Origin: Candidatus Undinarchaeales archaeon
GTDB taxonomy: Archaea > SpSt-1190 > JASMDC01
NCBI GenBank assembly: GCA_030753015.1
Contig: JASMDC010000021.1
Location: forward strand, 1-64,000
DNA: 64,000 nt
Direction of reading: 5' to 3'
This document shows, in pieces, positions 7,563 through 29,207 of this stretch; position 1 is the stretch's first letter; each line of letters starts with the position of its first letter. The notes under the pieces were generated by a model, which did no database searches, was not told where the DNA came from, and saw nothing but the letters and a program-made list of their open reading frames with translations. The translations under genes and the position numbers were made by a program.

Positions 7563-7838
7563 GAGGTGAACTACCCCTGAAACGTTTATAATGATATGGC
7601 GCGAAGGTATCTGGATTGCCAGGAGGCTGATTTGTTACTACTCTCAGTAGGAGGAGAATAATATAATGCATCCCAACCTACATATCCTTGTGGTGGATGG
7701 CGGACATGAAAGTTCTCCATCTACTATCAGGGCGGGGACCGCCCGCAGTGCCCGTGGAGCCGGGAACGGCGTGGAAGCGGGAAGCTCCTGTTCAAGTAAG
7801 TGGGGCAGTTCACTAAGGTGACAGGCCCCATCCCGACC

Positions 7839-9254: not shown

Positions 9255-9258
9255 GACC

Positions 9259-9777: not shown

Positions 9778-10528
9778 AACGTTTGCCCCCCTTCCCGTGA
9801 CCGTGGTGGACGTCACCTTCGTCCGGACCTCGACGCTCCTGCTGCGGTTCGAGGAGCTCACCGTCCTCACCGACCCCTGGTTCTGCATGCAGCTGCGGGG
9901 ACTGCCCTGCTACCAGCGCCCCGGTATCGAGCTCGAGGACCTGCCTACGATCGACCTGATCATCGCCTCCCACCTCCATCCCGACCACTTCGACCGTCGC
10001 TCCCTGAGCCGTATGGACCTGGGTGGCACCAACATCCTCGGGCCGGAGGGGACGGCGCGGTTCGCTCGCGACCTGGGGGCGAAGGCGGTCGTGGACATGG
10101 TCCCTGGCGAGGTCCACAAGCAGAGCGGAGTGACCATAACCGCCACCGAGGCGGACCATCCCGACGGCGAGGTGAACTTCGTCCTCCAGGACGGGTCCAC
10201 GACCATGTTCTTCGGCGGCGACACGAAGTACCATCACGGGTTCACCGATATCGGCCGACGCTTTGCCATCGATGTGGCCATGCTCCCCATGGGAGGCTCC
10301 CGGGTGCTCGGCCGTCGCATCGTCATGACACCCGCCCAGGCCCTCCAGGCGGCGGTGGAGCTGGGCGCGCGCATTGTCGTTCCCATTCATGAGGGCGGCG
10401 CCTGGATGAGCCTACCGCCCCTCTCCTTCCATTCGGGACGGCCCCAGGAGCTGGAGCAGCTGGCGCGGGAGCGGGAGCCCGGCATCGAAGTGCGCACCCT
10501 GCGACCGGGGGAGATGGCTAGGTTCTGA
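9767..10528 (+). CDS. Metallo-beta-lactamase-fold hydrolase (UlaG/RomA-like)
   Basis: TDPWF, SHLHPDH, FFGGDT and PIH motifs; start codon uncertain. Confidence 0.85.
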   Translation: MGIKTFAPLPVTVVDVTFVRTSTLLLRFEELTVLTDPWFCMQLRGLPCYQRPGIELEDLPTIDLIIASHLHPDHFDRRSLSRMDLGGTNILGPEGTARFARDLGAKAVVDMVPGEVHKQSGVTITATEADHPDGEVNFVLQDGSTTMFFGGDTKYHHGFTDIGRRFAIDVAMLPMGGSRVLGRRIVMTPAQALQAAVELGARIVVPIHEGGAWMSLPPLSFHSGRPQELEQLAREREPGIEVRTLRPGEMARF

Positions 10529-15665: not shown

Positions 15666-17234
15666 ATGATAGTCGGTGGAACGGAGCGTGGCGGAGCGGT
15701 CATCGCGCTCCTCCTTGCCGCGCTGGTGCTCCTTGCTGGATGCAATGCGAACCGCGGTGCGGAGACGTGCACGGGGCTCAAGAGCGTCGATGCTGACGGC
15801 TACCAATCTGAGAACGTGGAGGATTCGTGCGACATCTGCACCGACCTCCTGTCGGCCACCGGCCAGGAGACGACATGCTTCGAGGGCAAGGTAGTCGGTA
15901 CCTCGGTACAGGGCAAGAAAACGAAGCACTATCCGCAGCTCTACGGTCGGATCGACAACTGGCTGGATTGCGACATCATCGGGGACGACGGCCTGCGGCT
16001 GGGTTGCGCGTGCTGTCTGGTCGGCAGCCCGACCAACCGGTTCGAGACCGGTGAGTGCTACTCGGTCGCCGACCGCGGTTTCCAGCGTGTCGAGGAGCGC
16101 ACGTACATCGCGAATGGACGGTGCCTGCTCGGCTCCCCTCCGGCCGATACGGCCCCGGCGGATACGACGGCCGACATATCGATGGGCAAGCTCATCTCCC
16201 GGAAGGCGCTGCGGACCCATTCCGAGCATAGGCTCGCCCTCGACGAGCAGCACGGGCACGGCGTCAGCACCCACTACGGCGACGACTCGGAGTACGCTGA
16301 GCTCCTCACCACCCGGTTCGGCGGGAGCCATCCCAAGGCCCTCCTCTACGCCCTGCTGAAACGGGGTGATCTCAGCAAGCTGAACTTCGACCTCTACGGG
16401 CAGCTCGTCCTCCAACCGAAATCCCGGGAGCGCATCATGGCCCAGTTCGAGCAGCGGGTCGGAAAGGAGGTCGAGCAGGTCGTGCCCCGACTGCCGACCA
16501 CTGACGGTGTCTACCGGTACTACCAGCTGAGGATGGATGGGAAGGATCCGGCCGAGGCCCTCTCCCTCGCTGCGGCCTCCACGGCAGGTGACATGGACCG
16601 TGTCCCGCGTGAGAGCTCGTGCATCGGCATCGTGCTGGACGTTCTGAAAGGGGCGCACAACGAGGCGGGGCTGGGCTCCCGGTACCAGCAGCTATTCAGT
16701 GCGTACACACGGACCGGGAAGCGCGGCATAGGCATCGCACGAGAGCTTGTGCGGCAGGGATGGCAGGTCATCTTCGTCGCCCCGGACTCGCAGCATCCCC
16801 ACTGGAACAAGAAGAACGAGCACGGGTACGCCATCCAGGTGGCGCAAGGCCAGCGCACCTATTACGACCTGCCCATCGACCTCTTCCTGCTCGACTTCCG
16901 TCCGTCCACGACGACGGTCACCGACGCAGGCGAGACGACCATAGAAGTGCACGACCGGACGAGGAAGGACAGCACGGTCATCGACCTGCTCCATGACGAT
17001 CCACGGGTGAACGGTGGCTACGTCCTCGCTCGCGGGGGGGACCACATCTCGCTCCTGGTCCGCGACAAGAGCATGGACTGGCTGTCGGTGTTCGAGAACC
17101 ACCAGGACAGGGGACCGACCGACGAGGACCTCTTCGAGGTCACCATCCTGGACACCTGGGACTGGGGCTCCTACGTAGTTCTAGTACCCCCCGGCACGCT
17201 CGACCCAGCACGCTACGAGTTGACCGGGCACTGA
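15666..17234 (+). CDS. Putative lipoprotein of unknown function
   Basis: Lipobox LLAGC, Cys-rich N-domain, 522-aa ORF with host-like codon usage. Confidence 0.65.
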   Translation: MIVGGTERGGAVIALLLAALVLLAGCNANRGAETCTGLKSVDADGYQSENVEDSCDICTDLLSATGQETTCFEGKVVGTSVQGKKTKHYPQLYGRIDNWLDCDIIGDDGLRLGCACCLVGSPTNRFETGECYSVADRGFQRVEERTYIANGRCLLGSPPADTAPADTTADISMGKLISRKALRTHSEHRLALDEQHGHGVSTHYGDDSEYAELLTTRFGGSHPKALLYALLKRGDLSKLNFDLYGQLVLQPKSRERIMAQFEQRVGKEVEQVVPRLPTTDGVYRYYQLRMDGKDPAEALSLAAASTAGDMDRVPRESSCIGIVLDVLKGAHNEAGLGSRYQQLFSAYTRTGKRGIGIARELVRQGWQVIFVAPDSQHPHWNKKNEHGYAIQVAQGQRTYYDLPIDLFLLDFRPSTTTVTDAGETTIEVHDRTRKDSTVIDLLHDDPRVNGGYVLARGGDHISLLVRDKSMDWLSVFENHQDRGPTDEDLFEVTILDTWDWGSYVVLVPPGTLDPARYELTGH

Positions 17235-17289
17235 GCCGGCGCGACCTCCCGTCACGTTTAAATTCCTTCCCTCTGCCTCAGAACGCAGT

Positions 17290-17374
17290 GCGGGGGTACC
17301 CTAGTTGGCCAATGGGGCAGGGCTTAGGACCCTGTGGCTTAGTGCCTTCACGGGTTCGAATCCCGTCCCCCGCA
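17290..17374 (+). tRNA. tRNA-Leu(TAG)
   Basis: GCGGGGG/CCCCCGC acceptor stem, CAGGG-CTTAGGA-CCCTG anticodon arm, long variable arm, ACGGG-TTCGAAT-CCCGT T arm; TTTAAA box upstream. Confidence 0.97.
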
Positions 17375-17596
17375 CTCTTCCTTCGTTTGGTTAATAAGCA
17401 GCGATACGACCTAATCAGTGTAATTCCTCATGATATGTGAGAGCGTGTGAGATAAACCTATCCGGGAGTCTTGTATTCCAAGCCCTCGTGTGGCCTTTCA
17501 TGGTTGTAGTATTGAATGAACTTCTCCAAATCCTTGAATCTTGGATACTGCTCCTTGAAGGTCCGATCTACTCTACGTCCTGAGCCTTTCCAGATA

Positions 17597-19420
17597 TCAA
17601 TAGATCTCGAACCTGTCTATGTCCTCCTTTTCGATCAAGATCTCAGAGCTTATCAAGAGCGACTCCACAACGTTCTCGCTGCAGTCTGCAATCGCTTCAA
17701 GGCTTTCTGACAGTTCGTTCAGGATATGAAACGTAATGCGTGTTATCTTTACCTTATGAAGCCTTGAAACCAATATCTTGTACAATTCGTCTGTCCTATT
17801 CTCCAAGTCACCCACTTCATTCAAGATCGGATTGAGCTTTACTGGCTCATTGTAGAACAGCTCGAACGCTGAGCAAGCCGCCTCAAAGCTTTTCATGCTG
17901 TTCTCACAGAGTTCTTCCAGGCAATCCCTTATTGGCGCTGGAGGCGCATCTTCCAACATTGACAACTCTTCAGAAAGCACTTCCAGATTATCTACGGCTC
18001 TTTTAAGATGAACAATACCCCTCAACGGACCGCCGCCTTCATACACCAAAGAACTGGGTGATTTCAGGAGGGACCTGACCTTTTCATCGGTTTTTCTCTT
18101 CAGGGAAAAAACAGATTCTGCCCGTACAATATTATCCTCGGATTTACCACCAATCACTTCGGAAAAGAACTCATTTGCTCTTCTGCTGACGACCAGACAA
18201 TCTTTCAAATAATCCTGGATGAGCTCTTCTGTTGTTTTTTTCTTTTCTGTTTTTTGCATGAACCATGAATATCCGGCCTTAAGACCGAAGGATGTGAAGA
18301 CTGAACTGGCAAAGCTGATGAATATCAGGATCGTGAACAGTTCATTATCCAGAACGCCCATCTGCCGCCCGACCTCCGCAATTATCAATTCGACAGCGCC
18401 CCTTCCATTCATGCCGAGTCCGACAACGAGGCTTTCATTCTTGCTGCATCCACCCAGATACGCACCCAAGGACGTCCCCATCAGCTTGGAGATTATTGCT
18501 ACGATCAGCAGGCTCATTGTCAAAGAGAACGACGTGTACAGAACGGTCAGATCGATTGGGAACGCTATCCACACAAAGAAGATCGGCGCCAAGAATCCCA
18601 TCGTTATTGAAGAAAATGCGCTCTCCACCTTATGAAAGATCTTGGTGCCGGAGACGCCTTCACTGATGAACAGCCCCGCAATAAACGCGCCTATCGTGAA
18701 ATGTATGCCCAACAATTCAGCCAGTTCTGCGAGCAGGAACGCAAAGAGGATAAAGAACGTGAAAAAGATCGCAGTGCCTCTTGATTTCTTCATTAACGGA
18801 CCAATCCTTGGAAGTAAATGATTTCCCAGGACAAGTGCCAGAGAAAAGAACAGGACTACTTTAAGAATGATCTCTATTATTTGGAAACCAGAGGGAAGAG
18901 TGCCAAGTGTAGCTATATTAACAATTACTGCAAATACGACCAAAGAGATCAGGTTGTCAACGATCGCGGTACCGACGATTATCCTCCCGATTCGTGATTT
19001 CAAAGCCCCGAGGTCCATCAGTATCCTGCTTTTAACCGCTATCGCGGTCATTGAAAGAGCGATGCCAACGAACAAGGACTGCATTACTGCATAATTAAAA
19101 TGTCGGGCGGCCAGATACCCAAAGCCAAGAGGAAAAATGGTTCCTGCCAGTCCAGTAAGAAGAGTTATCCTAAAAAGTCCCTTAAGCTCCATCGGATTGG
19201 TCTTTAAACCCACGAGGAACATGAGAAAGAATATCCCAAGATCTGCCAGGACCTCAAGTGATTCGTGATACTCGATCCAGCCCAGAATTGGCGGACCAAG
19301 CAAGATCCCTGCACCGAGCTCTCCCAAAACAGCAGGCTGTCCTAACCGTTGAGCGAGCTCACCGCCCATCCTTGCTGCAGCCAAGATCAGAACCAGTTCA
19401 ATTATTAGCTCCATGTACAC
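17597..19420 (-). CDS. Cation:proton antiporter (CPA2/NapA-like) fused to a C-terminal DUF47/PhoU-like helical domain
   Basis: LGQPAVLGELGAGILLGP, FLMFLVGL, AIVDN, GAFIAG and MNGRGAV motifs; C-terminal LENRTDEL...LEAIADCSENV. Confidence 0.85.
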   Translation of the reverse strand: MYMELIIELVLILAAARMGGELAQRLGQPAVLGELGAGILLGPPILGWIEYHESLEVLADLGIFFLMFLVGLKTNPMELKGLFRITLLTGLAGTIFPLGFGYLAARHFNYAVMQSLFVGIALSMTAIAVKSRILMDLGALKSRIGRIIVGTAIVDNLISLVVFAVIVNIATLGTLPSGFQIIEIILKVVLFFSLALVLGNHLLPRIGPLMKKSRGTAIFFTFFILFAFLLAELAELLGIHFTIGAFIAGLFISEGVSGTKIFHKVESAFSSITMGFLAPIFFVWIAFPIDLTVLYTSFSLTMSLLIVAIISKLMGTSLGAYLGGCSKNESLVVGLGMNGRGAVELIIAEVGRQMGVLDNELFTILIFISFASSVFTSFGLKAGYSWFMQKTEKKKTTEELIQDYLKDCLVVSRRANEFFSEVIGGKSEDNIVRAESVFSLKRKTDEKVRSLLKSPSSLVYEGGGPLRGIVHLKRAVDNLEVLSEELSMLEDAPPAPIRDCLEELCENSMKSFEAACSAFELFYNEPVKLNPILNEVGDLENRTDELYKILVSRLHKVKITRITFHILNELSESLEAIADCSENVVESLLISSEILIEKEDIDRFEIY

Positions 19421-20002
19421 CTACAAATGCAAAAGGGCCTTTATAAAATTGATTGACACGATCGGTTAATGTTCACCCCGCCACTGGCATGAATTGTTTG
19501 TATCTCGCCATTGATATTGCTTATTGATTCACGCCTCATGATCTTGGCTTTGAACTCCTCGTATCGGGCCTCGTTCGTGTACCTCAGCAGGATGATCGAG
19601 CCGCTTGAACTTGAGACTGATGCGTACACGGGAATGGTGAAGCTGAGGTCCGTCTGCTATCTCAGGAACACCGGAGGACCTTCCTCCTGGATAGGATCGT
19701 CAATACAATCCCCGTGGATACCAACATGACTGTCGTGGCCTGAACGGGAACGATAGCCTAATTAAGGTTAGTACCGTGGGCGAGAGGCATGGCCGAGGAG
19801 ATTGCACCCGGGTCCATGGAGGGAGGGGCCGAACTGATCACGCCGGGTTGACGTTCTGAAACAGGAGTATGTATAAAACCCGATTTCGCAAGGAGGGATT
19901 TGAACTAGCTATTCGGCCCCCGTCCCAAGCTTGATGCAGCTGTTTTGATCGCCTGCGCAGCCTTTCCAAGCATTCCCCAATCCGGGTGCGAACCTCCCTG
20001 AT

Positions 20003-20118
20003 TTCCGAAAAGCTCAAGTAGAGCATGGACCATGAGGTAACCAAGCAAGGGTGCCCACTTGGATAGGATTAAAACGCCGATTTGCTAGCAAATTGGTGCG
20101 CGAATCCCGTCCCCCGCA
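20003..20118 (+). repeat. Conserved 116-bp island right end including the tRNA-Leu 3' copy (attR-like), copy A
   Basis: Ungapped alignment with 28325-28440 gives 20 mismatches in 116 nt by hand count. Confidence 0.92.
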
Positions 20119-20238
20119 CTAGTATTATTACTTAGCAAAGAGGATAATGGGCTGCACCGGCCGTGGTCAGAAGGTTTAAATAGGAAATAACCTACGGGAG
20201 AAGGAGACGGGGGAGTCTCTTCCTATTATGAGGTACGG

Positions 20239-20988
20239 ATGGAAGGTAACGACGGGGAACTGAACGTACGGGTGCTCGGTATGAGCGCCGCCGAGCCCTG
20301 GAACGGTTGGGACAACCATGCCATCGAGATCACCGATGGCGAGCACTCCTACCTCATCGACGCGGGGAGCGGGAAGGTGGCCGGACGGGAGTACGACGCA
20401 GTATTCATCACCCACTACCACATCGACCATACCCAGTACCTCTTCGACATCAAGGCCCGCCAGTACGTCGGGCCCGACCTCATGCCCCACGATGAGTTCC
20501 CCGAGGCCGGTGTCCATGATGCCTGGGAGCGACCCGATCACCGTCTTGAGGGCCTTATCGAGAGGGACGGCACGGTCCTCGATACCTTCGACGCCACAGG
20601 AGATCCGGTCCACGTGTACGAGGACGACCGCATCTCGGTGCACGCCCTCCCCACCTACCACAGCCCCCTGGTCCAGAGCGCCAGCTACCTGATCGAGAAC
20701 AAGGCCACCGGCAACTCCCTCTGGGTCTCCGGGGACTTCCACCACTTCCGTACCGGGGCCTGTGAGGACTACCTCCGGTCGGCGGCACCCTCCTTCTCCC
20801 TGGTGGAGGCCACCTTCTACGACGGTGGTCAACCGCCCGACCACCAGAACCTCGCCACGGCGACGGCACTGGCCGGGGAGCTCGGTTTGGAGGACTACCG
20901 CCTGGTCCACCTCAGCTTCAGGTGGGATGGGTACGTGGACGAGCATGAGGACGTCATCGCCTCGCCGGACGAGCTGTACTCATTCTAG
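20239..20988 (+). CDS. MBL-fold hydrolase (RNase Z/PhnP-like phosphodiesterase)
   Basis: VLG...LIDAG...THYHIDH...H...SGD...VEATF...H...VHLS motif order. Confidence 0.75.
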   Translation: MEGNDGELNVRVLGMSAAEPWNGWDNHAIEITDGEHSYLIDAGSGKVAGREYDAVFITHYHIDHTQYLFDIKARQYVGPDLMPHDEFPEAGVHDAWERPDHRLEGLIERDGTVLDTFDATGDPVHVYEDDRISVHALPTYHSPLVQSASYLIENKATGNSLWVSGDFHHFRTGACEDYLRSAAPSFSLVEATFYDGGQPPDHQNLATATALAGELGLEDYRLVHLSFRWDGYVDEHEDVIASPDELYSF

Positions 20989-20996
20989 CCCGAGGC

Positions 20997-21518
20997 CTAC
21001 CGTATCTTCTCGACGATGTCCAGGTAGGTCACAGTGCTCCCCGTCGCCTCGCTGTCCGCGCCGTCAGGGATCGGGATGTCCAGGTCCATCATATTCTCTA
21101 TGACGTCCCCCAGCTCGGTCTTGATGACGTTGAGCACGCGCCGTTTCTCCTCGAAGTCCTTGAACACGGCGATGAACAATCCGTCGTACTTTGTGGAGTT
21201 GAGGGAGCTCATGAACACCAGATTATCCTTGATGCGCTCGATACAGCCGAACATCCGCTCCTCGTTCGCCACGTGGTCGCGCCAGTAGTCGGCGTTCCAG
21301 AGGATGAAGATGAGGCTGCCGAACCGGTAGCCCAGTCCGTGGAGGTCCACGAGGCAGGTGTAGCCGCTAATGAGGCCCTCAGATTCCAGCTGGTTGCGTA
21401 TCTTGCTCACCGTCACCTGGGAGAGCCCCACCCTTCTCGCAATGTCGTTGTCCGACGAGCGGGCGTTCGCGGCCAGCTCCCTGAGCACACGTCGGGGATT
21501 TTCCTTCACACACATCAC
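20997..21518 (-). CDS. Lrp/AsnC family transcriptional regulator
   Basis: LAANARSSDNDIARRVGLSQVTVSKIRNQLESEGLISGYT..VDLHGLG HTH; divergent from the iol operon. Confidence 0.9.
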   Translation of the reverse strand: MMCVKENPRRVLRELAANARSSDNDIARRVGLSQVTVSKIRNQLESEGLISGYTCLVDLHGLGYRFGSLIFILWNADYWRDHVANEERMFGCIERIKDNLVFMSSLNSTKYDGLFIAVFKDFEEKRRVLNVIKTELGDVIENMMDLDIPIPDGADSEATGSTVTYLDIVEKIR

Positions 21519-21520
21519 CT

Positions 21521-21573
21521 AAAGTTATTGAATTAAAGTGTTTTCTTAATTTATCCTATTAATCAATAGCTTT
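21521..21573. promoter_or_regulatory. AT-rich divergent promoter region with inverted repeat AAAGTTATTGA...TCAATAGCTTT (candidate operator or back-to-back promoters)
   Basis: 11-bp arms with one mismatch, between the Lrp gene and the iol operon. Confidence 0.45.
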
Positions 21574-21624
21574 TTATTTGTTTCTCAGCTTGAAATCTTT
21601 GACATCTGCCAAGAGGCGATCACC

Positions 21625-22671
21625 ATGGACATCATGAACGCATTGCTCTTCCGCGACAAGGGTCGGTTCGACCTGACCGAGACCGATGGACCGGGCGCCA
21701 TCGGCCCCAAGGATGTGCTCATCGAGGTGAAGAGGGCGGGGATCTGCGGTACGGACCTGCACATCTTCCGCGGCACACACCCCGCCAATCCCGACATCAT
21801 CCTCGGGCACGAGTACGCCGGGGTAGTGGCGCAGGCCGGTGATAGCGTCACCCACCTACAAGAGGGCGACGCCGTCGTCATCGATCCCAACGTCACCTGC
21901 GGTACATGCTTCTTCTGCCGCAACGGGATGAGCAACCAGTGCGATGCCCTCGACACGGGCACCACCCTGGGCATATTCCGCCACGGCGGGTTCGCCCGGT
22001 TCAACGTGGCCCCCTCCCACATGGTGTACAAGGCGCCCAAGGACATGGACATGACCGCAGCAGCCCTGGTCGAGCCGCTGTCATGCGTACTGAACGGAGT
22101 AAAGAATGCCGCCATCCAGCCCGAGGACACGGTGGTCGTGCTCGGCGCCGGCCCCATCGGCCTCCTCTTCACTAACGTCCTCTCGCACTTGGCAAGCCTC
22201 CTCATCGTGTCCGAGGTGGACGATCTGCGGGCCGGAAAGGCCCGGCAGTTCACGCCCCACGTGCTCGACCCCAAGGAGACGGACATAGGCAAGGAGGTGC
22301 GGTCGCTCACCGACGGCCGCGGCGCTAACGTGGTGGTGGACGCCACCGGCGTGCTCATGGGCGACGCTCTGGGCCTGGTCGCCAAGGGCGGGAAGGTGGT
22401 GCTCTTCGGCATGAACTCGGCCCACACGGCTGCTATCCGGCCGTACGACATCACCCGTAACGAGATCCAGGTCATCGGCACCTACATCGCCAATCGCACC
22501 GTCGTCCCGGCCATGACCATGCTCCACCAGGGGCGGATCGACGTGGAGCACTACGTGGACACTGTGCTCCCCCTGGACGACATCTACGACGGCTTCCGCC
22601 GGCTGGGTCTCGACCCGGAGACGGGCGAGCGAACACCTATGGACGCCGTCAAGGTGCTCGTGAAGCCGTAG
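21625..22671 (+). CDS. Zn-dependent (MDR) alcohol/polyol dehydrogenase
   Basis: GICGTD, GHEYAG, CGTCFFC...C structural Zn site, GAGPIG. Confidence 0.92.
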   Translation: MDIMNALLFRDKGRFDLTETDGPGAIGPKDVLIEVKRAGICGTDLHIFRGTHPANPDIILGHEYAGVVAQAGDSVTHLQEGDAVVIDPNVTCGTCFFCRNGMSNQCDALDTGTTLGIFRHGGFARFNVAPSHMVYKAPKDMDMTAAALVEPLSCVLNGVKNAAIQPEDTVVVLGAGPIGLLFTNVLSHLASLLIVSEVDDLRAGKARQFTPHVLDPKETDIGKEVRSLTDGRGANVVVDATGVLMGDALGLVAKGGKVVLFGMNSAHTAAIRPYDITRNEIQVIGTYIANRTVVPAMTMLHQGRIDVEHYVDTVLPLDDIYDGFRRLGLDPETGERTPMDAVKVLVKP

Positions 22672-22682
22672 GGTGCCCTGCG

Positions 22683-23696
22683 ATGGCCGAGGACACGACC
22701 GAAAAAAACCTCGACGTCCTCACCACCGGGATGGTGGTGACGGACGTCATTACCGCGGACCTGCCCCGGTTCGCCGACCCTAGCGAGATGATGTTCGTTC
22801 CCCGCGGGGTGGAGGTTCACGTGGGGGGGCACCCGGCCAACGTGGCCATCGACCTCGCCGCCGTGGGCGTGAACCCGGCCACCATCGGCGTGGTCGCAGC
22901 GGTAGGGGAGGACGTGTTCGGTGATTTCATCGAGGGCACCCTCACGAGGCACGGCATCATTCCCCTCCTACAGCGGAAGCCCGTCGGGACGAGCAAGAAC
23001 ATGATTCTTGTGCTCACCGGCGAGGACAGGCGGTTCCACCTGGACCCAGGGGCCAACATGGAGCTCGAGGCGGACCATGTGATCGATGCCCTGCGGGAGC
23101 ATCACCCCCGTGTGCTCTGCTGTCGGCCCGGCTACTCGGGGATCGACTTGGAGATGGAGCGGGTGGTGCGGGCCGCCCGGGAGGTCGGCACCACCGTCTT
23201 CCTCGACATCTGCAGGCCGTACGCGAAGCCCTGGGACTACATCGCCCCGGCCCTCCCCCATGTGGACATCTTCCACTCCAACGAGGGCGAGGCCATGGGC
23301 GTCACCCGCACCACCACCGTGGATGACGCCCTGGACGCCCTCCTGGACACCGGCATCGGCGCAGTGTTCATCACCGGCGGCGGGAGCGGGGCGAGGGTCA
23401 GGACCAGGCGATGGGATCTGGCCCAGCCGGGGCTCGCGGTGGATGCCATCGACCCCACTGGAGCGGGGGATGCCTTCTGTGCGGGGGTGGTCCGCACGCT
23501 CCTGGACAGGAACGAGCTGGACTGCGACGTACTGGGGCGGGAGGGGCTCGCCCGGCTCCTTGCCTATGCCCAGGCCATGGGCGCCGCCGCGGCGTCGGCA
23601 GTAGGAACGACGACGGGTGTTACTGCCGAGCGTGTACGGTCCCTGGTAGAGGCCCAGGGAGAGCGTCTGGTCACAGAAACCCACTCCCCGGAATAG
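22683..23696 (+). CDS. PfkB-family sugar kinase (IolC-like role by context)
   Basis: GGHPANVA, VGEDVFG and DPTGAGDAF motifs. Confidence 0.88.
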   Translation: MAEDTTEKNLDVLTTGMVVTDVITADLPRFADPSEMMFVPRGVEVHVGGHPANVAIDLAAVGVNPATIGVVAAVGEDVFGDFIEGTLTRHGIIPLLQRKPVGTSKNMILVLTGEDRRFHLDPGANMELEADHVIDALREHHPRVLCCRPGYSGIDLEMERVVRAAREVGTTVFLDICRPYAKPWDYIAPALPHVDIFHSNEGEAMGVTRTTTVDDALDALLDTGIGAVFITGGGSGARVRTRRWDLAQPGLAVDAIDPTGAGDAFCAGVVRTLLDRNELDCDVLGREGLARLLAYAQAMGAAAASAVGTTTGVTAERVRSLVEAQGERLVTETHSPE

Positions 23697-23707
23697 AGGT
23701 GCTGCTC

Positions 23708-24505
23708 ATGGTACGAACCAACGACGTCCACATCCGGGCCCCCGCCGCCCTGGCGGAGGGCGAGAACGAGTATATCGGCCCGGCCGATCCCCACGGGATG
23801 GGGTTCTCGGTCCTCAGACTTACTAGAGCGCTCACCGGGCGCACCGACCACGAGACCTGCCTCGTGCTCCTCTCGGGAAAGGGGAGGGTGCGCGTGGGAG
23901 GCGAGGATCACGACGTTGAGCGCTCCTCCCTGCTGGACGAGGAGCCGTGGACCTTCCTCCTCCCGGCGGGCGAGGATTTCGCCGTCCTCCCGGAACCCGA
24001 AATGGAGCTCGCGGTCATACGAACGGAGAACGAGCGACGCTTTTCGCCGCGGGTGTTCGCACCGGACGCGGTCGACGTGGAGCGACGGGGCGAGGACCTG
24101 GTCGACGGGGCGTGCTTCCGTCTGGTAAAGACCGTGTTCGATCATTCCACCATGGCGGAGAGCAATCTCGTCGTGGGCGAGGTGGTGAACCAGCCGGGAC
24201 GCTGGTCGAGCTATCCTCCGCATCACCACCCCCAACCAGAGCTATACTACTACCGCTTCGTCCCCGGGCAGGGTTACGGCTTCTCCCAGCTCGGTGACAG
24301 GGCGATCAAGGTGTCCGAGGGGAGCCTGGTGTGCATCCCGCCGGACACAGATCACCCGCAGGTGGCCGCACCAGGATACGCCATGTGGTACCTGTGGGTG
24401 GTGCGCCACCTGCCCGACGACCCCTACACGGGATTCACGTTCGATCCACGACATGAATGGACCCTGGACCCCGGAGCGGATGTATGGAGGATAGGAAAGG
24501 GATAG
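23708..24505 (+). CDS. iolB: 5-deoxy-glucuronate isomerase
   Basis: LVVGEV...PGRWSSYPPHHHPQPELYYYRF...HPQVAAPGYAMWYLW. Confidence 0.92.
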   Translation: MVRTNDVHIRAPAALAEGENEYIGPADPHGMGFSVLRLTRALTGRTDHETCLVLLSGKGRVRVGGEDHDVERSSLLDEEPWTFLLPAGEDFAVLPEPEMELAVIRTENERRFSPRVFAPDAVDVERRGEDLVDGACFRLVKTVFDHSTMAESNLVVGEVVNQPGRWSSYPPHHHPQPELYYYRFVPGQGYGFSQLGDRAIKVSEGSLVCIPPDTDHPQVAAPGYAMWYLWVVRHLPDDPYTGFTFDPRHEWTLDPGADVWRIGKG

Positions 24506-24508
24506 ATC

Positions 24509-26365
24509 ATGGCTTCAAAGGAACGGAACCGACAGGAGATGACGGCCTCCCAGGCCATCGTCCGCTACCTAATCCACGAGGGTTTGCCGTACGTGTTCGG
24601 CATCTTCGGTCACGGCAACGTGCAGCTGGGCGAGGCCCTGAAGGAGCACGAGGACGAGATCACGTATATCCAGCTGAAGAACGAGCAGAACGGCGTCCAC
24701 ATGGCCATCGGCTATGCCAAGATGACCGGACGGCCGCTCGCCGTGACCACGTCCATCGGGCCCGGGTGCACCAATCTCGTCACCGGCGCTGGGGCGGCGC
24801 GGGTGAACCGCCTGCCTGTGCTTCTGCTTCCCGGTGACGCCTTCGCAGACGCCGCGGGGCCGTTGCTCCAGCAGGTGGAGGGGAACGCGTGCCCGGAGGA
24901 CATGGCCTCGGACACCCTCCGGCCCGTCTCCCGGTACTGGACGCGGATCACCCGGCCAGAGCAGCTCGCACGCCGCCTTCCACAGGCGTTCGACGCCATG
25001 CTGGAGCCCGGTAACGAGGGCCCGGCCACCCTCGCACTGCCCATGGACACCCAGACATTCTCCCACCCCTTCGACGTGGATATGCTCTTCAAACCGCGTG
25101 ACCGGGAGTGGGAGCGCACACGGCCCGACGAGCGGGCCGTAAGGAGGGCGGCGGAGCGTATCTCCAAGGCCACCCGACCCCTCATCATTGCCGGAGGGGG
25201 CGTCATCCGTTCGGAAGCGTGGGAAGAGGTCATTCGGCTCGCCGAGCGCATCTGCGCCCCCGTGGTCTCCACCCAGGCCGGGAACGGTACCATGCTGTGG
25301 GACCACCACATGAACGCCTTCACGGTCGGCCCGGACGGCAGTTCATGCGGCAACCGCCTATGCAAGAAGGCCGACCTGGTCATCGGCATCGGTACGCGGT
25401 ACGGGGACTTCACCACCTGCTCGGACACACTGTTCGGTCCCGACGTGGAGTTCGTCAACCTCAACATCTGCAACTTCGACGTGGGCAAGCAGCGGGCCGT
25501 GAAGCTCCTGGGTGACGCGAGGGAGTCCCTGCGGCTGCTCCTGGAGGAGCTCACCGGGCTCGGCGTGGAGCGGGAGCTTGACGGTAGCCCGTACTACGAG
25601 GAGCTCCAGCGAGAGCGCCGGGAGTGGATGGCCGAGGTGGACCGCGTCACCGGCGAGGATGCCTCGCCCATGACCCAGAACCGCGTCATCGGCGTGCTCA
25701 ACGAGGTCACCGACGACCGGGCGGTGATCGTTTCGGCCGCCGGCAGCCTGCCGGGCCACCTCCTGCGCTTGTGGAAGACCAAGGACCCCACACGGAAGGG
25801 CTACCACTGCGAGTACGCCTTCTCCACCATGGGGTACGAGGTGGCCGGCGGCATGGGTGTGAAGCTCGCCGATCCCTCCCGCGACGTGTACGTCATGGTG
25901 GGGGACGCCTCCTTCCTCATGGCCCCCCAGGAGCTGGTCACCGCCGTCCAGGAGGGTATCGCCGTGACCGTCGTCCTCGTGGACAACCACGGCCCCCAGG
26001 TCATCCGTAACCTCCAGGCCTCCTGCGGCTTCGAGGAGTTCGGGTGCGAGTTCAAGGCCCGCAATGGGAAGGGCCTTGACGGCGGCTACCTCAATCTGGA
26101 CTTCGCCGGGATGGCAGAGTCCATGGGGTGCGTGGGCCTGCGGGCCGCCAACCCCGAAGAGCTCAAGGACGCACTGGCCACAGCAAGGGAGGTCACCGAC
26201 CGACCCACCCTCATCCACGTGCTGGTGGAGCCCGGGCGCAGGTTCCTCGGGTGCTACGACGGCTGGTGGGACGTGCCCCGACCCGTGTTATCGGACCGGG
26301 AGGAGATGCGCCGGCACCGCGCGGAGTACGAGCGGGTGAAGCGCGAGGAGCAGGTGGTGAGGTGA
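24509..26365 (+). CDS. iolD: 3D-(3,5/4)-trihydroxycyclohexane-1,2-dione acylhydrolase
   Basis: FGIFGHGNV, NEQ, TTSIGPG, AAGSLPG, YHCEYAFSTMGYE, TPP motif GDASF and WWDVP. Confidence 0.95.
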   Translation: MASKERNRQEMTASQAIVRYLIHEGLPYVFGIFGHGNVQLGEALKEHEDEITYIQLKNEQNGVHMAIGYAKMTGRPLAVTTSIGPGCTNLVTGAGAARVNRLPVLLLPGDAFADAAGPLLQQVEGNACPEDMASDTLRPVSRYWTRITRPEQLARRLPQAFDAMLEPGNEGPATLALPMDTQTFSHPFDVDMLFKPRDREWERTRPDERAVRRAAERISKATRPLIIAGGGVIRSEAWEEVIRLAERICAPVVSTQAGNGTMLWDHHMNAFTVGPDGSSCGNRLCKKADLVIGIGTRYGDFTTCSDTLFGPDVEFVNLNICNFDVGKQRAVKLLGDARESLRLLLEELTGLGVERELDGSPYYEELQRERREWMAEVDRVTGEDASPMTQNRVIGVLNEVTDDRAVIVSAAGSLPGHLLRLWKTKDPTRKGYHCEYAFSTMGYEVAGGMGVKLADPSRDVYVMVGDASFLMAPQELVTAVQEGIAVTVVLVDNHGPQVIRNLQASCGFEEFGCEFKARNGKGLDGGYLNLDFAGMAESMGCVGLRAANPEELKDALATAREVTDRPTLIHVLVEPGRRFLGCYDGWWDVPRPVLSDREEMRRHRAEYERVKREEQVVR

Positions 26366-26373
26366 CGGACCGG

Positions 26374-27264
26374 ATGAGGGTGCGGCTTGGAGTATCACCC
26401 ATCGCCTGGAGCAACGACGACATGCACGACCTCGGGGGCGAAATACCCCTCGAGCGGTGCCTGGGCGAGGCCAGCACGGCCGGGTACGTCGGCGTCGAGC
26501 TGGGGCACAAGTTCCCCCGCGACCCCGCCGTGCTCATGCCGCTCCTGGTCGGCCACGGGCTGGACCTCGTCTCGGGCTGGCACTCCACGTTCTTCACCAG
26601 GGAGAAGGGCCACGATCGTGAGCGTGCGAACTTCAAGAGCCACCTGTCCTTCCTAAAGTCCATGGGGTGTAGCGTCATCATCTGCGCCGAGTGCAACCGG
26701 ACCAGGCACTCTACCATCGACGCCGCTCCACGGGAGAAAGGAGTACCGCTCTTCACCGACGAGGAGTGGGCACGTCTTGCCACCCGGCTCGACGAGGCGG
26801 GACACGTCGCCGCCAATGCCGGGCTGAGGCTCGTGTACCACCACCACATGGGCACGGGCGTGGAGTCTCCGGAGGAGATCCACCGGCTCATGGACACCAC
26901 GGATCCGGACCTGGTGCACCTGCTGGGCGACACGGGCCACATGCTCTATGGCGGAGGTGATCCTGCGACGCTGTTCTCCCGGTACGCCGAGCGCATCGGG
27001 CACGTTCACTTGAAGGACATCCGACGCGACGTGCTGGAGGAGGTCAAGCGGAACCGCCTCTCCTTCCTCGCCTCGGTGCGCATGGGGGTGTTCACCGTCC
27101 CAGGGGACGGGTGCATCGACTACGGGCCGGTCATCGGCTCGCTGGACCGCTCCGGGTATGAGGGCTGGCTGGTGGTAGAGGCCGAGCAGGATCCTGCGAT
27201 CGCCGAGCCCCTGGCATACGCCCGGAAGGCGCGAGGTTTCATCAGGAATAAGGCCGGGATATGA
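26374..27264 (+). CDS. iolE: myo-inosose-2 dehydratase
   Basis: PIAWSNDD, ELGHKFP, YHHHMGT, DTGH, HVHLKD, FTVPGDG and VEAEQDP motifs. Confidence 0.95.
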   Translation: MRVRLGVSPIAWSNDDMHDLGGEIPLERCLGEASTAGYVGVELGHKFPRDPAVLMPLLVGHGLDLVSGWHSTFFTREKGHDRERANFKSHLSFLKSMGCSVIICAECNRTRHSTIDAAPREKGVPLFTDEEWARLATRLDEAGHVAANAGLRLVYHHHMGTGVESPEEIHRLMDTTDPDLVHLLGDTGHMLYGGGDPATLFSRYAERIGHVHLKDIRRDVLEEVKRNRLSFLASVRMGVFTVPGDGCIDYGPVIGSLDRSGYEGWLVVEAEQDPAIAEPLAYARKARGFIRNKAGI

Positions 27265-27361
27265 TGGACGACATGTTCTCCGTCGAGGACGCCGTAGCCT
27301 CAAGAGAGTACCTCGAGCGCTTCCTTCGTCCGGCTAGGGATGGGTCCGGGTCCGTTTGACC

Positions 27362-28255
27362 ATGGATCGGTTCGTCGTTGCCCTGATCCTGGGCTCCACC
27401 TTCATGCACGCCGGATGGAACCTGCTCGCCCGCCGGCAGCGGTGCGAGACCTCGTTCTTCGAGCGGATGCTCCTCGTGACCGTCCTCGCCGGGCTCGTTC
27501 CGGCGGCGATGAGCGAGGCGGCGATGAGCGAGGCGGCGACCCGGTCTCTTACCCCAATTGCGTGGGCGTGCGTGGTCGGCTCTGGGCTCTGCTGCGGGAT
27601 GTATTACTTCTTCCTTGCCCGGGCGTACGAGTCCGCGGACTTCACCGTGGTCTATCCTGTAGCTCGCTCCCTGCCAGTGGTGCTCGTCGCCCTCGGCGAC
27701 ATGGTGCGGGGGAGGTATCCCAGCCCCGCCGGCTGGTCCGGTATGCTCCTCGTGGTGTCCGGATGCTTCCTCGTCTCGCTCCGCTCGAGCCGGGACGTGA
27801 ACGTTCGGCGCTATCTCGACCGGGCCCACCTGTGGATGCTGTTCACCGCCCTTGGAACGGTGGGCTACACCCTGCTCGACAAGGTAGCCGCTGAGACCAT
27901 GCAACAGGGGCCGACGACAGCCGCCCGGTACGGCTACGTGTTCTTCCTCGTCTCCTACCTGGCCTTCTCGGTGCTCCTGAGGGTGCTTGGACGCGGGGAG
28001 CAGCGCCCGGCGTCCATCGGATGGCGGGACCCGGCCATCGCCGCCGCCCTCAACTTCGGCGCCTACTGGCTCGTGCTCTGGGCATACCAGCTGAGCACGT
28101 TCGCCAGCTACATCGTCGCCCTGCGGCAGTTCAGCATCGTCATCGGCGTCGTGCTGGCCCTCGCCATCTTCAAGGAGAAGGAACCGGGCATCCGTCTCGC
28201 GGGCACCCTGGTGATCACCGTCGGACTCGTGGTCGTCAGTCTCTTTAGCGGGTGA
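27362..28255 (+). CDS. EamA/DMT family transporter
   Basis: HAGWNLL, AYESADFTVVYPVAR, YTLLDK and ALRQFSI; ~10 TM helices. Confidence 0.88.
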   Translation: MDRFVVALILGSTFMHAGWNLLARRQRCETSFFERMLLVTVLAGLVPAAMSEAAMSEAATRSLTPIAWACVVGSGLCCGMYYFFLARAYESADFTVVYPVARSLPVVLVALGDMVRGRYPSPAGWSGMLLVVSGCFLVSLRSSRDVNVRRYLDRAHLWMLFTALGTVGYTLLDKVAAETMQQGPTTAARYGYVFFLVSYLAFSVLLRVLGRGEQRPASIGWRDPAIAAALNFGAYWLVLWAYQLSTFASYIVALRQFSIVIGVVLALAIFKEKEPGIRLAGTLVITVGLVVVSLFSG

Positions 28256-28324
28256 TCGACGGCCCAGGACGGCCACCGCGATCCGACAGCGCGGCTTTCA
28301 CTAGAGGGCTCTATTGGGATTGGC

Positions 28325-28440
28325 TTCCGAAAAGCTCAAGTAGAGCATAGGCTACGAGGTAACCAGACAAGGGTGTCGACTGGGATAGGATGAGCCTGCC
28401 GATTTGTAAGCAAGATCGTGCGCGGATCCCGTCCCCCGCA
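28325..28440 (+). repeat. Conserved 116-bp island right end including the tRNA-Leu 3' copy, copy B
   Basis: Homologous to 20003-20118; followed by CCA. Confidence 0.92.
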
Positions 28441-28454
28441 CCACCCCATGATCA

Positions 28455-29207
28455 ATGGTGGACCACATGGACCCACAGACCATCGCGACCGTGACCCTCG
28501 TGCTCGGCGTCCTTACCCTCCTGACCGGCTGCCAACGGAGCTCGTCGGGCAGCGATGCCGAGGCCCCCGCAGCACAGTTCGAGATATCGGATGGCCAGGG
28601 TCTGGTCGGGGTCGACACAAGCACACTCAAGGAGGACGCGAACGCGACCATCACCATCGTCGGCCGTATCGAGGACACGGGCGCCCTCAACCTCTTCCGC
28701 ACCTATAGTCTGGCCGATGGTCATGCTCTCTCCCGTCAGTACTACCTCACTGAGCGCGTGTACGAGGATCTGCACGGTTCGACCTGGGTACGCCTGACCT
28801 GCCAGCCAGCGGGCACTCTGTACGGCGGGCCCGCCCTCCGCGTGTCGTCCTTCGAGCCTGTGCCTGGACTGAACGCCTCGCTCGAGCGTGCAGTGCTGGA
28901 TGCCTGTGGGCATGTGGAAGCTAGCCGGAATAACTTCGACCTGAACCTGTACAAGGGGACCGAGCGGTTCAAGGCAGCCCTGGCCGAGCACGCCGATAAG
29001 GACCTCAACACACTGCCCTTCGAGCCGAGGGACGAGGTGGTGTTCGTTGACCGTGACGTTCGCAAGGCAGGTATCGACTGCGGCCGAGTGGTGCTCCGCA
29101 ACGGTCCCGTGCGGGGCGACTTCCTCAGCTTCCTGGCCGTGTACGACCTTGAGGCCAAGAGAGTAGAACGGGTGCTCGTCAGGAACACGGGCTACTTCAT
29201 GGAGTGA
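28455..29207 (+). CDS. Putative lipoprotein
   Basis: Lipobox LLTGC; no recognised domain. Confidence 0.6.
   Translation: MVDHMDPQTIATVTLVLGVLTLLTGCQRSSSGSDAEAPAAQFEISDGQGLVGVDTSTLKEDANATITIVGRIEDTGALNLFRTYSLADGHALSRQYYLTERVYEDLHGSTWVRLTCQPAGTLYGGPALRVSSFEPVPGLNASLERAVLDACGHVEASRNNFDLNLYKGTERFKAALAEHADKDLNTLPFEPRDEVVFVDRDVRKAGIDCGRVVLRNGPVRGDFLSFLAVYDLEAKRVERVLVRNTGYFME

What the first reader, a model, noticed from the sequence alone, without database searches (positions are those of the whole stretch)
17290..28443. tRNA-anchored stack of integrase-free cargo cassettes sharing a conserved, hairpin-rich 116-bp end
Seen: the tRNA-Leu 3' end is repeated at 20101-20120 and 28426-28441, delimiting units of 2.7 kb (low-GC antiporter) and 8.3 kb (high-GC inositol operon). 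Their cargo and base composition are unrelated and neither encodes a recombinase. Both end in the same 116-nt sequence (20003-20118 vs 28325-28440; ungapped, 20 mismatches). Mismatches fall evenly over codon positions (5/8/7) in the shared open frame, and conservation runs past its stop, so it is conserved as nucleic acid. It holds hairpins: invariant GCTC-AAGTA-GAGC; GCA-AGGG-TGC vs GACA-AGGG-TGTC (compensatory G-C/A-T change); CCGATTTGC-TA-GCAAATTGG vs CGATTTG-TAAG-CAAGATCG. The last att copy ends in CCA, consistent with the original tRNA terminus displaced by successive insertions. Tandem integration at tRNAs is established. The inference is a family of non-autonomous gene cassettes defined only by a structured end and inserted in trans, i.e. 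an integron-like array using a tRNA as its attachment site.
Basis: partly seen in the sequence, partly recalled or inferred. Interest (0 to 1): 0.85.

Follow-up and report, generated by a model that had tools for sequence, protein, structure and literature searches.

The report
Integrase-less gene islands stacked at tRNA-Leu
Two unrelated gene islands sit one behind the other at a leucine tRNA gene of a marine archaeon; both have lost, or never had, their integrase but keep the same 116-base end, which in a sister species ends an insertion that starts with an integrase gene, so this is a familiar kind of island stacking rather than a new cassette system.

Summary
tRNA-Leu(TAG) lies at 17290-17375. 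Its 3' end recurs at 20101-20120 and 28426-28441. A 116-117-nt block (20 mismatches, 8/5/7 by position) precedes both copies. No ORF I scanned between them matches an integrase.

The same-genus genome G001 has the empty site: the tRNA ends in CCA and joins directly to the homologue of window 28448 onward. So 17376-28441 is inserted, and the terminal CCA is the displaced original tRNA end.

The block occurs four times in two genomes, each time beside different cargo and with the same left boundary.

In G001 one copy forms the right end of an insertion in tRNA-Leu(GAG). That insertion's left end carries a conserved orf188 plus Xer-like tyrosine integrase module, and the site is empty in G000. 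The block is therefore most likely the integrase-distal arm of the attP of a conventional archaeal integrative-element family.

G000 has no cognate integrase or orf188.

Hairpin and covariation support is no better than the controls.

Best reading: a tandem accretion of integrase-less (CIME-like) islands. Whether they entered without an integrase or lost it later is unresolved. An integron-like trans-capture system is not shown. This is a new member of a known kind.

The parts
17290..17375 (+). tRNA-Leu(TAG), the attachment target. Its last about 19 nt (17357-17375) are att core copy 1 (attL). The gene now ends ...GCAC-TCT without an encoded CCA.
   Evidence: ARAGORN, Rfam RF00005 56.8 bits, sequence. 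The G001 orthologue ends ...GCACCA.
17376..20002 (.). Unit E1 cargo, 2.6 kb, 47.4% GC. It holds one clear gene at 17597-19420 (-), a Na+/H+ exchanger fused to a PhoU_div/DUF47 domain. Non-coding stretches lie at 17376-17596 and 19421-20002.
   Evidence: Pfam; GC. Absent from G001 except for a 97-nt match. Only two close protein relatives among the 120 best listed, at 93% and 72% identity, the rest 41% or lower.
20003..20100 (+). Block A: the conserved non-coding end of E1, proposed integrase-distal arm of attP. It contains the palindromes GCTC-N5-GAGC and CCGATTTGC-TA-GCAAATTGG, and the invariant GTGCGCG that forms an inverted repeat with the tRNA acceptor 3' strand (GTGCG...CGCAC).
20101..20120 (+). 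att core copy 2 (E1/E2 junction): CGAATCCCGTCCCCCGCACT, identical to the tRNA 3' end plus one base.
   Evidence: (100% match of 17357-17376).
20121..28324 (.). Unit E2 cargo, 8.2 kb, 64.9% GC. Genes: MBL-fold 20239-20988 (+), HTH regulator 20997-21518 (-), zinc ADH 21625-22671, PfkB kinase 22683-23696, KduI/IolB (within 23411-24505), TPP enzyme 24509-26365, xylose-isomerase-like TIM (within 26128-27264), EamA transporter 27356-28255. This is an inositol-catabolism-like set.
   Evidence: Pfam; GC; no DNA match in G001.
28325..28425 (+). Block B: the conserved non-coding end of E2. It is 79% identical to block A outside the core and 83% with the core included.
28426..28443 (+). att core copy 3 (attR): ATCCCGTCCCCCGCAC followed by CA. 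This is the displaced original 3' end of the tRNA, with its encoded CCA, followed by the original chromosomal flank.
   Evidence: Sequence. G001 empty site ...CCCCCGCACCA plus flank homologous to window 28448 onward at 85%.

Best explanation
Window 17376-28441 is a tandem array of two integrase-less genomic islands. They were inserted by site-specific recombination into the 3' end of tRNA-Leu(TAG).

The shared 116 nt is a roughly 98-nt non-coding arm of the elements' attachment site (attP) plus the 16-20-nt core copied from the tRNA. The arm belongs to an archaeal integrative-element family. Its integration module is a conserved 188-aa protein gene followed by a Xer-like tyrosine integrase gene. 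That module sits at the opposite, tRNA-proximal end of the element.

The invariant GTGCGCG at the arm's inner edge forms an inverted repeat with the tRNA acceptor 3' strand. I infer that this is the recombinase's core site. I also infer that the remaining ~90 nt is a one-sided accessory sequence, as at Xer sites such as cer and psi (recalled), bound by orf188 or host factors.

E2 probably entered first and E1 second, the newest unit lying next to the tRNA. This order is inferred.

Both units now lack the integration module, and the genome lacks the cognate integrase, so the array is stranded. It was seen unchanged wherever contigs of other marine metagenomes cover it.

I take loss of the module after integration as somewhat more likely than entry without one. 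That would make these CIME-like decayed elements stacked by accretion.
For: (1) Real insertion. G001:C6 carries the upstream gene, the tRNA and the downstream flank contiguously, with tRNA ...GCACCA followed directly by the homologue of window 28448 onward.

(2) The same end with an integrase in G001.
- tRNA-Leu(GAG) on C29 is followed by orf188 and a 333-aa tyrosine recombinase. Pfam gives PF00589 7.5e-23 and SAM_1. The best NCBIfam match is XerA_Arch, 160 bits, below its 220-bit cut-off.
- The block plus core on C30 is followed by the other flank.
- G000:C33 joins both flanks as an empty site.
- A 15-nt string, ATTTAATGGCAATTT, lies just before the core on C30 and just after the core on C29. 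This ties the two ends to one attP.

(3) The orf188-int module lies directly after tRNA 3' ends. Integrase relatives of 43-51% identity were found at 4 loci, in Hadesarchaea, Bathyarchaeota, Methanomassiliicoccales and Haloarculaceae MAGs. All 4 sit directly after a tRNA 3' end. orf188 homologues were found by tblastn in 3 of the 4.

(4) The block is non-coding, and its left boundary is the same in 4 of 4 copies, with unrelated cargo beyond it.

(5) G000 lacks the module. tblastn of orf188 finds nothing, and the best integrase match is 24% identical.

(6) Contigs of runs from two other studies bridge the tRNA-E1 and E1-E2 junctions unchanged.

(7) Precedent from passages read:
- Integrase loss after integration and tandem integration in archaea (PMC8371274).
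- CIMEs and accretion (PMC5704250).
- Tandem units separated by partial tRNAs, and degenerated remnants, in marine Prochlorococcus (10.1101/2020.12.28.424599).
Against: (a) The G001 integrase end (C29) and block end (C30) are on different contigs with no overlap. The first 685 nt of C29 match G000:C11 at 91%. The insertion could therefore be an array, or rearranged, and the block could belong to a separate integrase-less unit there too.

(b) No remnant of orf188 or int is detectable in E1 or E2. tblastn gives only noise, E >= 0.002, from spurious frames. E1 is compositionally foreign (47% against 60-65% GC), so it is probably recent, yet it is already completely integrase-free.

(c) All 6 islands flanked by tRNA 3'-end repeats in G000 lack an integrase. 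This is more uniform than random decay would lead one to expect.

(d) The integrase has no obvious arm-binding N-terminal domain. The SAM-like domain starts at about residue 33. An 'arm' role for the ~90 nt is therefore an inference. Its function is not shown.

(e) Only 4 copies in 2 genomes are known.
Confidence: 0.7

Rival explanations
1. Trans-mobilised cassettes. E1 and E2 never carried an integrase. Block plus core is a self-sufficient attachment site, and an integrase supplied by an autonomous relative inserted the circular cassettes one after another at the tRNA, like integron cassettes at attI.
For: - No remnant of the module in either unit.
- Cargo starts 118-220 nt after the core.
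- The left boundary of the block is sharp and identical in 4 of 4 copies, with four unrelated cargos.
- GTGCGCG is invariant in all copies, so each cassette keeps a complete inverted-repeat core.
- E1 is small (2.7 kb), foreign in GC and already integrase-free.
- 6 of 6 tRNA-flanked islands in G000 are integrase-free.
- A cognate autonomous element exists in the genus.
Against: - No circle, single-unit or empty-site form in G000-like populations (contigs only, so a weak test).
- G000 has no cognate integrase.
- The 15-nt motif that flanks the core on both sides in the G001 element is only weakly matched after the core in E2 (9/16 by eye) and hardly at all in E1.
- No structural conservation of the attC kind.
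- Only 4 copies are known.
- Decay is the documented route to such islands.
Confidence: 0.25
2. The 116 nt is a structured non-coding RNA gene, or a folded single-strand DNA site of the attC type, and selection on its hairpins explains the conservation.
For: Inverted repeats are kept in 86.8% of cells, against 33-40% in slid controls. 2 pairs show changes on both sides. Copy A folds with z = -2.44.
Against: - Z-scores of the other three + strand copies are -1.08, +1.13 and +0.94. The - strand gives 0.22, -1.30, -0.15 and 0.95.
- Covariation is not above shuffles (183/500, 153/500).
- The alifold covariation term is only -0.75 kcal/mol.
- No Rfam family matches at E <= 1.
- Primary sequence is conserved at 68-79%, unlike attC sites, which keep structure rather than sequence (recalled).
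Confidence: 0.04
3. The 116 nt is a fragment of an integrase gene split on integration (SSV-type), or the decayed end of an integrase ORF.
For: Split integrase genes overlapping tRNA halves are known in archaea (PMC7253208, abstract seen in the listing).
Against: Stops lie in every frame of 3 of 4 copies, and in 5 of 6 frames of copy B. Mismatches are spread evenly over positions. tblastn with the family's integrase and orf188 finds nothing in the units. In G001 the integrase is intact and lies at the other end, separated from the core by orf188.
Confidence: 0.01

Closest known systems
CIMEs (cis-mobilizable elements) and site-specific accretion at att sites, described for ICESt1/ICESt3-type elements of streptococci (review PMC5704250, passages read; primary papers Pavlovic 2004 and Bellanger 2011 seen only as references there)
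   Same: The units are flanked by att repeats, lack integration genes, and are stacked in tandem at the 3' end of a target gene. A related autonomous element with an integrase of the same specificity exists.
   Different: The host is an archaeon and no conjugation genes are involved. The retained conserved sequence is on one side of the core only. Decay from a full element is inferred here, not shown. No cis-mobilisation was observed.
Tycheposon islands of marine Prochlorococcus (bioRxiv 10.1101/2020.12.28.424599, passages read)
   Same: Cargo-carrying elements integrate at tRNA genes. Successive integrations push older units outward, with units separated by partial tRNA copies. Islands hold degenerated remnants. 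The cargo is nutrient or transport genes, and the habitat is marine.
   Different: Tycheposons are defined by their own integrases and replication modules. The two units here have neither. The host domain and the integrase lineage differ (Xer-like with an orf188 partner).
Archaeal integrated elements (iMGEs), including ones without an integrase and ones in tandem (PMC8371274; PMC6563490)
   Same: tRNA 3'-end targets, att direct repeats, tandem re-use of one site, and loss of integrase after integration reported as the presumed cause of integrase-less elements.
   Different: From the passages I read, I did not see a described case of a conserved about 100-nt one-sided end shared by integrase-less units with unrelated cargo. 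Supplements were closed and the full texts were not read.
Integron cassettes with attC sites (recalled, not tested against a reference here)
   Same: An array of promoter-proximal-newest, recombinase-free units, each ending in a recombination site of about 60-140 nt. The recombinase is a Xer-related tyrosine recombinase encoded elsewhere.
   Different: attC sites keep structure but not sequence and recombine as folded single strands. Here the sequence is kept and structure is not supported. No attI, integron-integrase gene or Pc platform is present. The target is a tRNA, and the units are multi-gene with their own promoters.
Xer accessory sequences at cer and psi sites (recalled)
   Same: A simple Xer-type recombinase core with about 100-180 bp of accessory sequence on one side only.
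   Different: cer and psi serve plasmid multimer resolution with host accessory proteins. No such role or proteins are shown here. This is an analogy only.

Membership tests
tRNA-targeting integrative element / genomic island (tyrosine-recombinase type) | Insertion at the 3' end of a tRNA gene, with the tRNA restored and its displaced 3' fragment as a direct repeat at the far end | tested here: met
   Core repeats at 17357-17375, 20101-20120 and 28426-28441. The displaced copy carries the original CCA.
tRNA-targeting integrative element / genomic island (tyrosine-recombinase type) | An empty site in a related genome | tested here: met
   G001:C6 has the tRNA directly followed by the flank. Reciprocally, G000:C33 is empty where G001 is occupied.
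tRNA-targeting integrative element / genomic island (tyrosine-recombinase type) | Element-encoded integrase | tested here: not met
   No PF00589 hit inside 17376-28441. None of the 16 ORFs scanned matches an integrase family. No tblastn remnant. The feature is met only by the G001 relative.
CIME (cis-mobilizable element) | Retains attL and attR but has lost the integration and transfer genes | tested here: met
   att copies are present and no integration genes are found. That the genes were lost rather than never present is not shown.
CIME (cis-mobilizable element) | Derives by deletion from a full element, and can be mobilised in cis after accretion with an autonomous element | not testable with these tools
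   No ancestral full-length E1 or E2 was found. Contigs of 4 runs show no alternative forms.
Integron (cassette array) | Adjacent intI gene with attI and a Pc promoter | tested here: not met
   The array starts at a tRNA. The nearest tyrosine recombinase genes (window 2-1081 and 1438-2571) are 15 kb away and only 21-24% identical to the G001 element's integrase.
Integron (cassette array) | attC sites: conserved imperfect-palindrome structure with little sequence conservation | tested here: not met
   Sequence is conserved at 68-79%. Folding z-scores are inconsistent. Covariation is not above shuffles.
SSV-type (class I) archaeal integrase element | attP inside the integrase ORF, with int split into N and C fragments flanking the integrated element | tested here: not met
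   The block is non-coding. The family's integrase is intact and separated from the core by orf188.
Known RNA family (Rfam 15) | Covariance-model match | tested here: not met
   Only the tRNA and one chance hit at E = 0.81 elsewhere (26048-26134) in 17000-29000 at E <= 1.

The most novel reading that the evidence does not exclude
Block plus core is a portable, self-sufficient attachment site. In this archaeal lineage, arbitrary gene sets that acquire this ~116-nt end become cassettes. An orf188/Xer-like integrase encoded by a separate autonomous element then inserts them one after another at tRNA-Leu genes. That would be a tRNA-anchored, integron-like gene-capture system in archaea. The sharp common left boundary at the invariant palindrome GCTC-N5-GAGC could mark a second recombination site where cargo is exchanged.
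Probability: 0.2. Interest if true: 0.7.

Novelty: new member of a known kind. Interest (0 to 1): 0.35.

Why it matters
The case shows cleanly, with reciprocal empty sites in two congeneric genomes, how metabolic and transport genes are added at tRNA genes in a poorly known marine archaeal lineage. The added genes are an inositol-catabolism-like set and a foreign Na+/H+ exchanger.

It also identifies a conserved two-gene integration module, orf188 plus a Xer-like integrase, directly after tRNA 3' ends. The integrase relative was found at 4 of 4 loci in other archaeal lineages, and orf188 at 3 of those 4.

If the integrase-less units were shown to be inserted in trans through the 116-nt end, this would be an archaeal analogue of cassette capture. 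As it stands it is an ordinary outcome (accretion of integrase-less islands) with an unusually tidy conserved end.

Tried and rejected
Wider search for the block
- Two degenerate patterns against viral contigs: 0 and 0.
- One pattern against metagenome contigs: 1 stretch, with no similarity around it and next to nothing relevant, so a chance match.
- BLAST over all 17 genomes of the phylum: only G000 and G001.
- A sequence-only Infernal model of the block (R1): the same 4 copies, plus one E = 0.6 hit in the phylum, and nothing better than E = 0.23 in the 4 genomes holding integrase relatives.

Reads
- The look-up of sequencing runs listed 20 holders from 11 studies, and no RNA holder was listed.
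- Read laying on 4 runs (X9, X14, X18, X20; Logan contigs only) gave no joint that skips E1, E2 or both, and no circle junction.
- The only joint (21766>22143) is inside E2, in one contig with a 21-nt side.
- Loose ends at 17374-17376 belong to the paralogous tRNA-Leu(GAG) locus or to other organisms' tRNAs.
- Contigs drop rare variants, so this says nothing about rare circles.

Remnants and left ends
- tblastn of every frame of at least 60 aa of the G001 elements against E1+E2 gave only E >= 0.002 noise.
- Left ends of E1, E2 and G001:C29 share no BLAST match beyond 8-9-mers.
- An alignment with three further integrase-bearing relatives shows a shared post-core motif with a TATA-like box in the integrase-bearing loci. 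E2 resembles it only weakly and E1 not at all. I count this as inconclusive.

Other steps
- Linking G001:C29 to C30: no overlap of contig ends.
- attR of the Hadesarchaea relative: not on its contig.
- The origin of E1's exchanger could not be placed. There are two unnamed close relatives, and the rest are 41% identical or less and mostly bacterial.
- The core of the G001:C3 copy matches no tRNA of G000 or G001 within 2 mismatches.
- An SSV-type split integrase and a coding reading of the block were rejected.
- Literature: one search for integrase-less islands mobilised in trans returned 0 papers. A second returned 13, of which I saw only the listing. I make no claim that the trans model is absent from print.
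- Supplements are closed and were not consulted. Tables of integrated elements in PMC6563490 and of tycheposons may hold comparable integrase-less units.

Full report
**1. What is in the window**

ARAGORN places tRNA-Leu(TAG) at 17290-17375, and Rfam agrees. An archaeal-type TTTAAAT box lies about 30 nt upstream.

The last 19-20 nt of the tRNA recur at 20101-20120, and its last 16 nt at 28426-28441. Each repeat is preceded by the same sequence. The repeat finder reports 20003-20119 vs 28325-28441, 117 nt, 83%, without gaps. Within the 3.85-Mb assembly the second copy scores E = 9.8e-29, and there is no third copy.

The two delimited units differ in composition:
- E1 (17376-20002) has 47.4% GC and one clear gene, a Na+/H+ exchanger fused to a DUF47/PhoU_div domain.
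- E2 (20121-28324) has 64.9% GC. It encodes MBL-fold, HTH, zinc-ADH, PfkB, KduI/IolB, TPP-enzyme, xylose-isomerase-like and EamA proteins, consistent with inositol catabolism.
- The genome is 60.3% GC and the flanks 62-65%.

None of the 16 ORFs I scanned inside the region matches a recombinase family. A whole-genome search with PF00589 has no hit inside 17376-28441.

**2. It is a real insertion, and the last copy is the old tRNA end**

The only other genome of the family, the same-genus G001, carries the upstream gene, the tRNA and the downstream flank on one contig (C6). There the tRNA ends ...CCCCCGCACCA and runs straight into the homologue of window 28448 onward, at 85-88% identity. So 17376-28441 is absent from G001.

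The CCA that follows the third att copy in the window is the original encoded terminus, pushed 11 kb away. The working tRNA now ends ...GCAC-TCT. E2 has no DNA match in G001, and E1 has only a 97-nt match elsewhere.

**3. The 116-nt end recurs, always with other cargo**

BLAST and a sequence-only Infernal model (R1) over all 17 genomes of the phylum find four copies, two in G000 and two in G001. Pairwise identity outside the core is 68-79%. That is lower than the 85-88% of orthologous flanks, so the copies are not recent duplicates.

In all four the similarity starts at the same column (TTTCCGAAAAGCTCAAGTAG...) and runs to the core. The DNA to the left is unrelated in each case:
- the exchanger (E1)
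- the iol-like genes (E2)
- ArsR/cupin/ABC-transporter genes with an IS (G001:C30)
- a 1338-aa DUF4082 protein with a DUF6345 protein (G001:C3)

Every frame of three copies, and five of six frames of the fourth, contains stops, so the block is non-coding. Pattern scans of viral and metagenome contig collections found no further copy.

**4. The end belongs to an integrase-bearing insertion in the sister species**

In G001 the tRNA-Leu(GAG) gene on C29 shares the same 3' end. It is followed, on the same strand, by a 188-aa ORF and then a 333-aa tyrosine recombinase. Pfam gives Phage_integrase 7.5e-23 and SAM-like N-terminal domains. The best NCBIfam match is archaeal XerA at 160 bits, below its cut-off, so I call it Xer-like and not XerA.

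The block copy on C30 is followed by a core and then by DNA homologous to what follows tRNA-Leu(GAG) in G000. G000:C33 joins the C29 flank and the C30 flank directly, so it is a reciprocal empty site. Whatever lies between in G001 (at least 23 kb on two contigs) therefore begins with orf188-int and ends with the block.

A 15-nt string, ATTTAATGGCAATTT, occurs just before the core on C30 and just after it on C29. This variant is specific to these two ends, which argues that they come from one attP.

Caveat: the contigs do not overlap, and the far end of C29 resembles another G000 region at 91%. An array or a rearrangement cannot be excluded.

The module is not a local oddity. Integrase relatives of 43-51% identity in Hadesarchaea, Bathyarchaeota, Methanomassiliicoccales and Haloarculaceae MAGs lie directly after tRNA 3' ends. 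Three of the four are preceded by an orf188 homologue, and they share a post-core motif with a TATA-like box.

**5. What the block most likely is**

In the circular form the order would be block - core - post-core motif/promoter - orf188 - int. The invariant GTGCGCG at the block's inner edge is the reverse complement of the tRNA's ...CGCAC end. This gives an inverted repeat around the crossover region, as expected for the core site of a simple tyrosine recombinase (read; the function is inferred).

The integrase has no room for an arm-binding domain ahead of its SAM-like domain. The remaining ~90 nt is therefore better seen as a one-sided accessory sequence, by analogy with cer and psi at Xer sites (recalled), perhaps bound by orf188. 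This step is inference.

The structural reading fares poorly:
- Folding z-scores of the four copies are -2.44, -1.08, +1.13 and +0.94 on the + strand, and 0.22, -1.30, -0.15 and 0.95 on the - strand.
- The alifold covariation term is -0.75 kcal/mol.
- Four sequences are too few for a verdict. The palindromes could equally be protein-binding sites.

**6. How the array arose**

Both units lack the module. tblastn with all frames of the G001 elements finds nothing credible in them. G000 has no orf188 homologue and no integrase closer than 24% identity.

Two routes remain:
- Loss after integration. This is the documented route for integrase-less islands in bacteria (CIMEs; PMC5704250) and the presumed one in archaea (PMC8371274).
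- Entry without an integrase, inserted in trans by a relative's enzyme.

For the second route speak several points. There are no remnants at all. E1 is small, compositionally foreign and yet clean. The block has a sharp common boundary. All six islands flanked by tRNA 3'-end repeats in G000 (at 5 of the 36 tRNAs that ARAGORN finds) are integrase-free.

Against it speak other points. The post-core motif is degenerate in E2 and absent in E1. No alternative forms appear in contigs of four runs, although contigs from two other studies bridge both junctions unchanged. The cognate enzyme is also missing from G000.

I put about 0.5 on decay and 0.2-0.25 on trans insertion, within an overall 0.7 for the framework 'attP arm of a conventional integrase family, with units stacked by accretion'.

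**7. Comparison and novelty**

Tandem re-use of a tRNA att site, partial tRNAs between units, and integrase-less remnants are all described:
- streptococcal CIMEs and accretion
- Prochlorococcus tycheposon islands
- archaeal iMGEs

The array does not meet the defining features of an integron. It has no intI/attI platform, and its ends keep sequence rather than structure. It is not an SSV-type split-integrase element either. It is a new member of a known kind.

What is modestly new is the well-delimited ~100-nt one-sided end shared by units with unrelated cargo, and the orf188-Xer-like module found across several archaeal phyla.

**8. Limits**

- Only two genomes carry the block.
- The G001 element is split over contigs.
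- Read evidence came from assembled contigs only.
- No RNA holder was listed (reported under Tried and rejected only).
- Paper supplements were not available.

Noticed in passing
G000 contigs C11 (tRNA-Gly-TCC, 837 bp), C22 (tRNA-Gly-GCC, 2357 bp), C40 (tRNA-His, 4103 bp), C65 (tRNA-Ser-GCT, 1636 bp); loci L065, L066, L067, L053: Four further small islands are flanked by a repeat of the tRNA 3' end, all without an integrase. Cargo: an unknown ORF; a DDE transposase; an HTH protein plus glutamate dehydrogenase; an AAA_14/DUF4143 ATPase. The two tRNA-Gly islands share a short pre-core GTG.GCTTTGTTC that again forms an inverted repeat with the tRNA end.
   Followed up: partly
L012 (G001:C3) 6969-7195 and L053 (G000:C65) about 5600-5665: The fourth block copy has a core (AATCCCGTCACCGGAC) that matches no tRNA of either genome within 2 mismatches. 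It lies about 90 nt before a tRNA-Ser(GCT) 3'-end repeat. The roughly 55 nt before that Ser repeat is conserved between G000 and G001 although the cargo differs. This suggests a block-bearing junction carried as cargo inside a tRNA-Ser array.
   Followed up: partly
window 2-1081 (-) and 1438-2571 (-): Two adjacent full-length tyrosine recombinase genes (PF00589 E about 1e-40 each, with SAM_4 domains) lie at the contig start. They are only 21-24% identical to the G001 element's integrase.
   Followed up: partly
L018 (G001:C6) 6120-10157 (-): G001 has a 1345-aa ORF with a CWB2 cell-wall-binding domain between the upstream gene and the tRNA-Leu(TAG) promoter. G000 has only a few bases there.
   Followed up: partly
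window 19489-19585: A 97-nt stretch of E1's non-coding part matches G001:C16:77519-77616 at 79%. It overlaps small ORFs with no Pfam match. Unexplained.
   Followed up: partly
whole genome G000 / phylum: The phylum holds 17 species genomes. The 15 outside this genus are 0.6-1.2 Mb, whereas this genus has 3.6-3.8 Mb and about 60% GC. The public title of the G001 record calls it a Candidatus Undinarchaeota archaeon. The size contrast, or the placement, deserves a look. Contamination is 5%.
   Followed up: no
L030 9330-9440 and L031 9300-9420: tRNA-like genes directly upstream of the orf188-int module in the Hadesarchaea and Bathyarchaeota loci were not called by ARAGORN, probably because they carry introns. 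Their 3' ends resemble the tRNA-Leu end used here.
   Followed up: no
window 27502: One contig of run X14 lacks 15 nt at 27502, inside a short direct repeat (CGGCGATGAGCGAGGCGGCG at 27504 and 27519). This is a strain-level length variant in the EamA-region frame.
   Followed up: no
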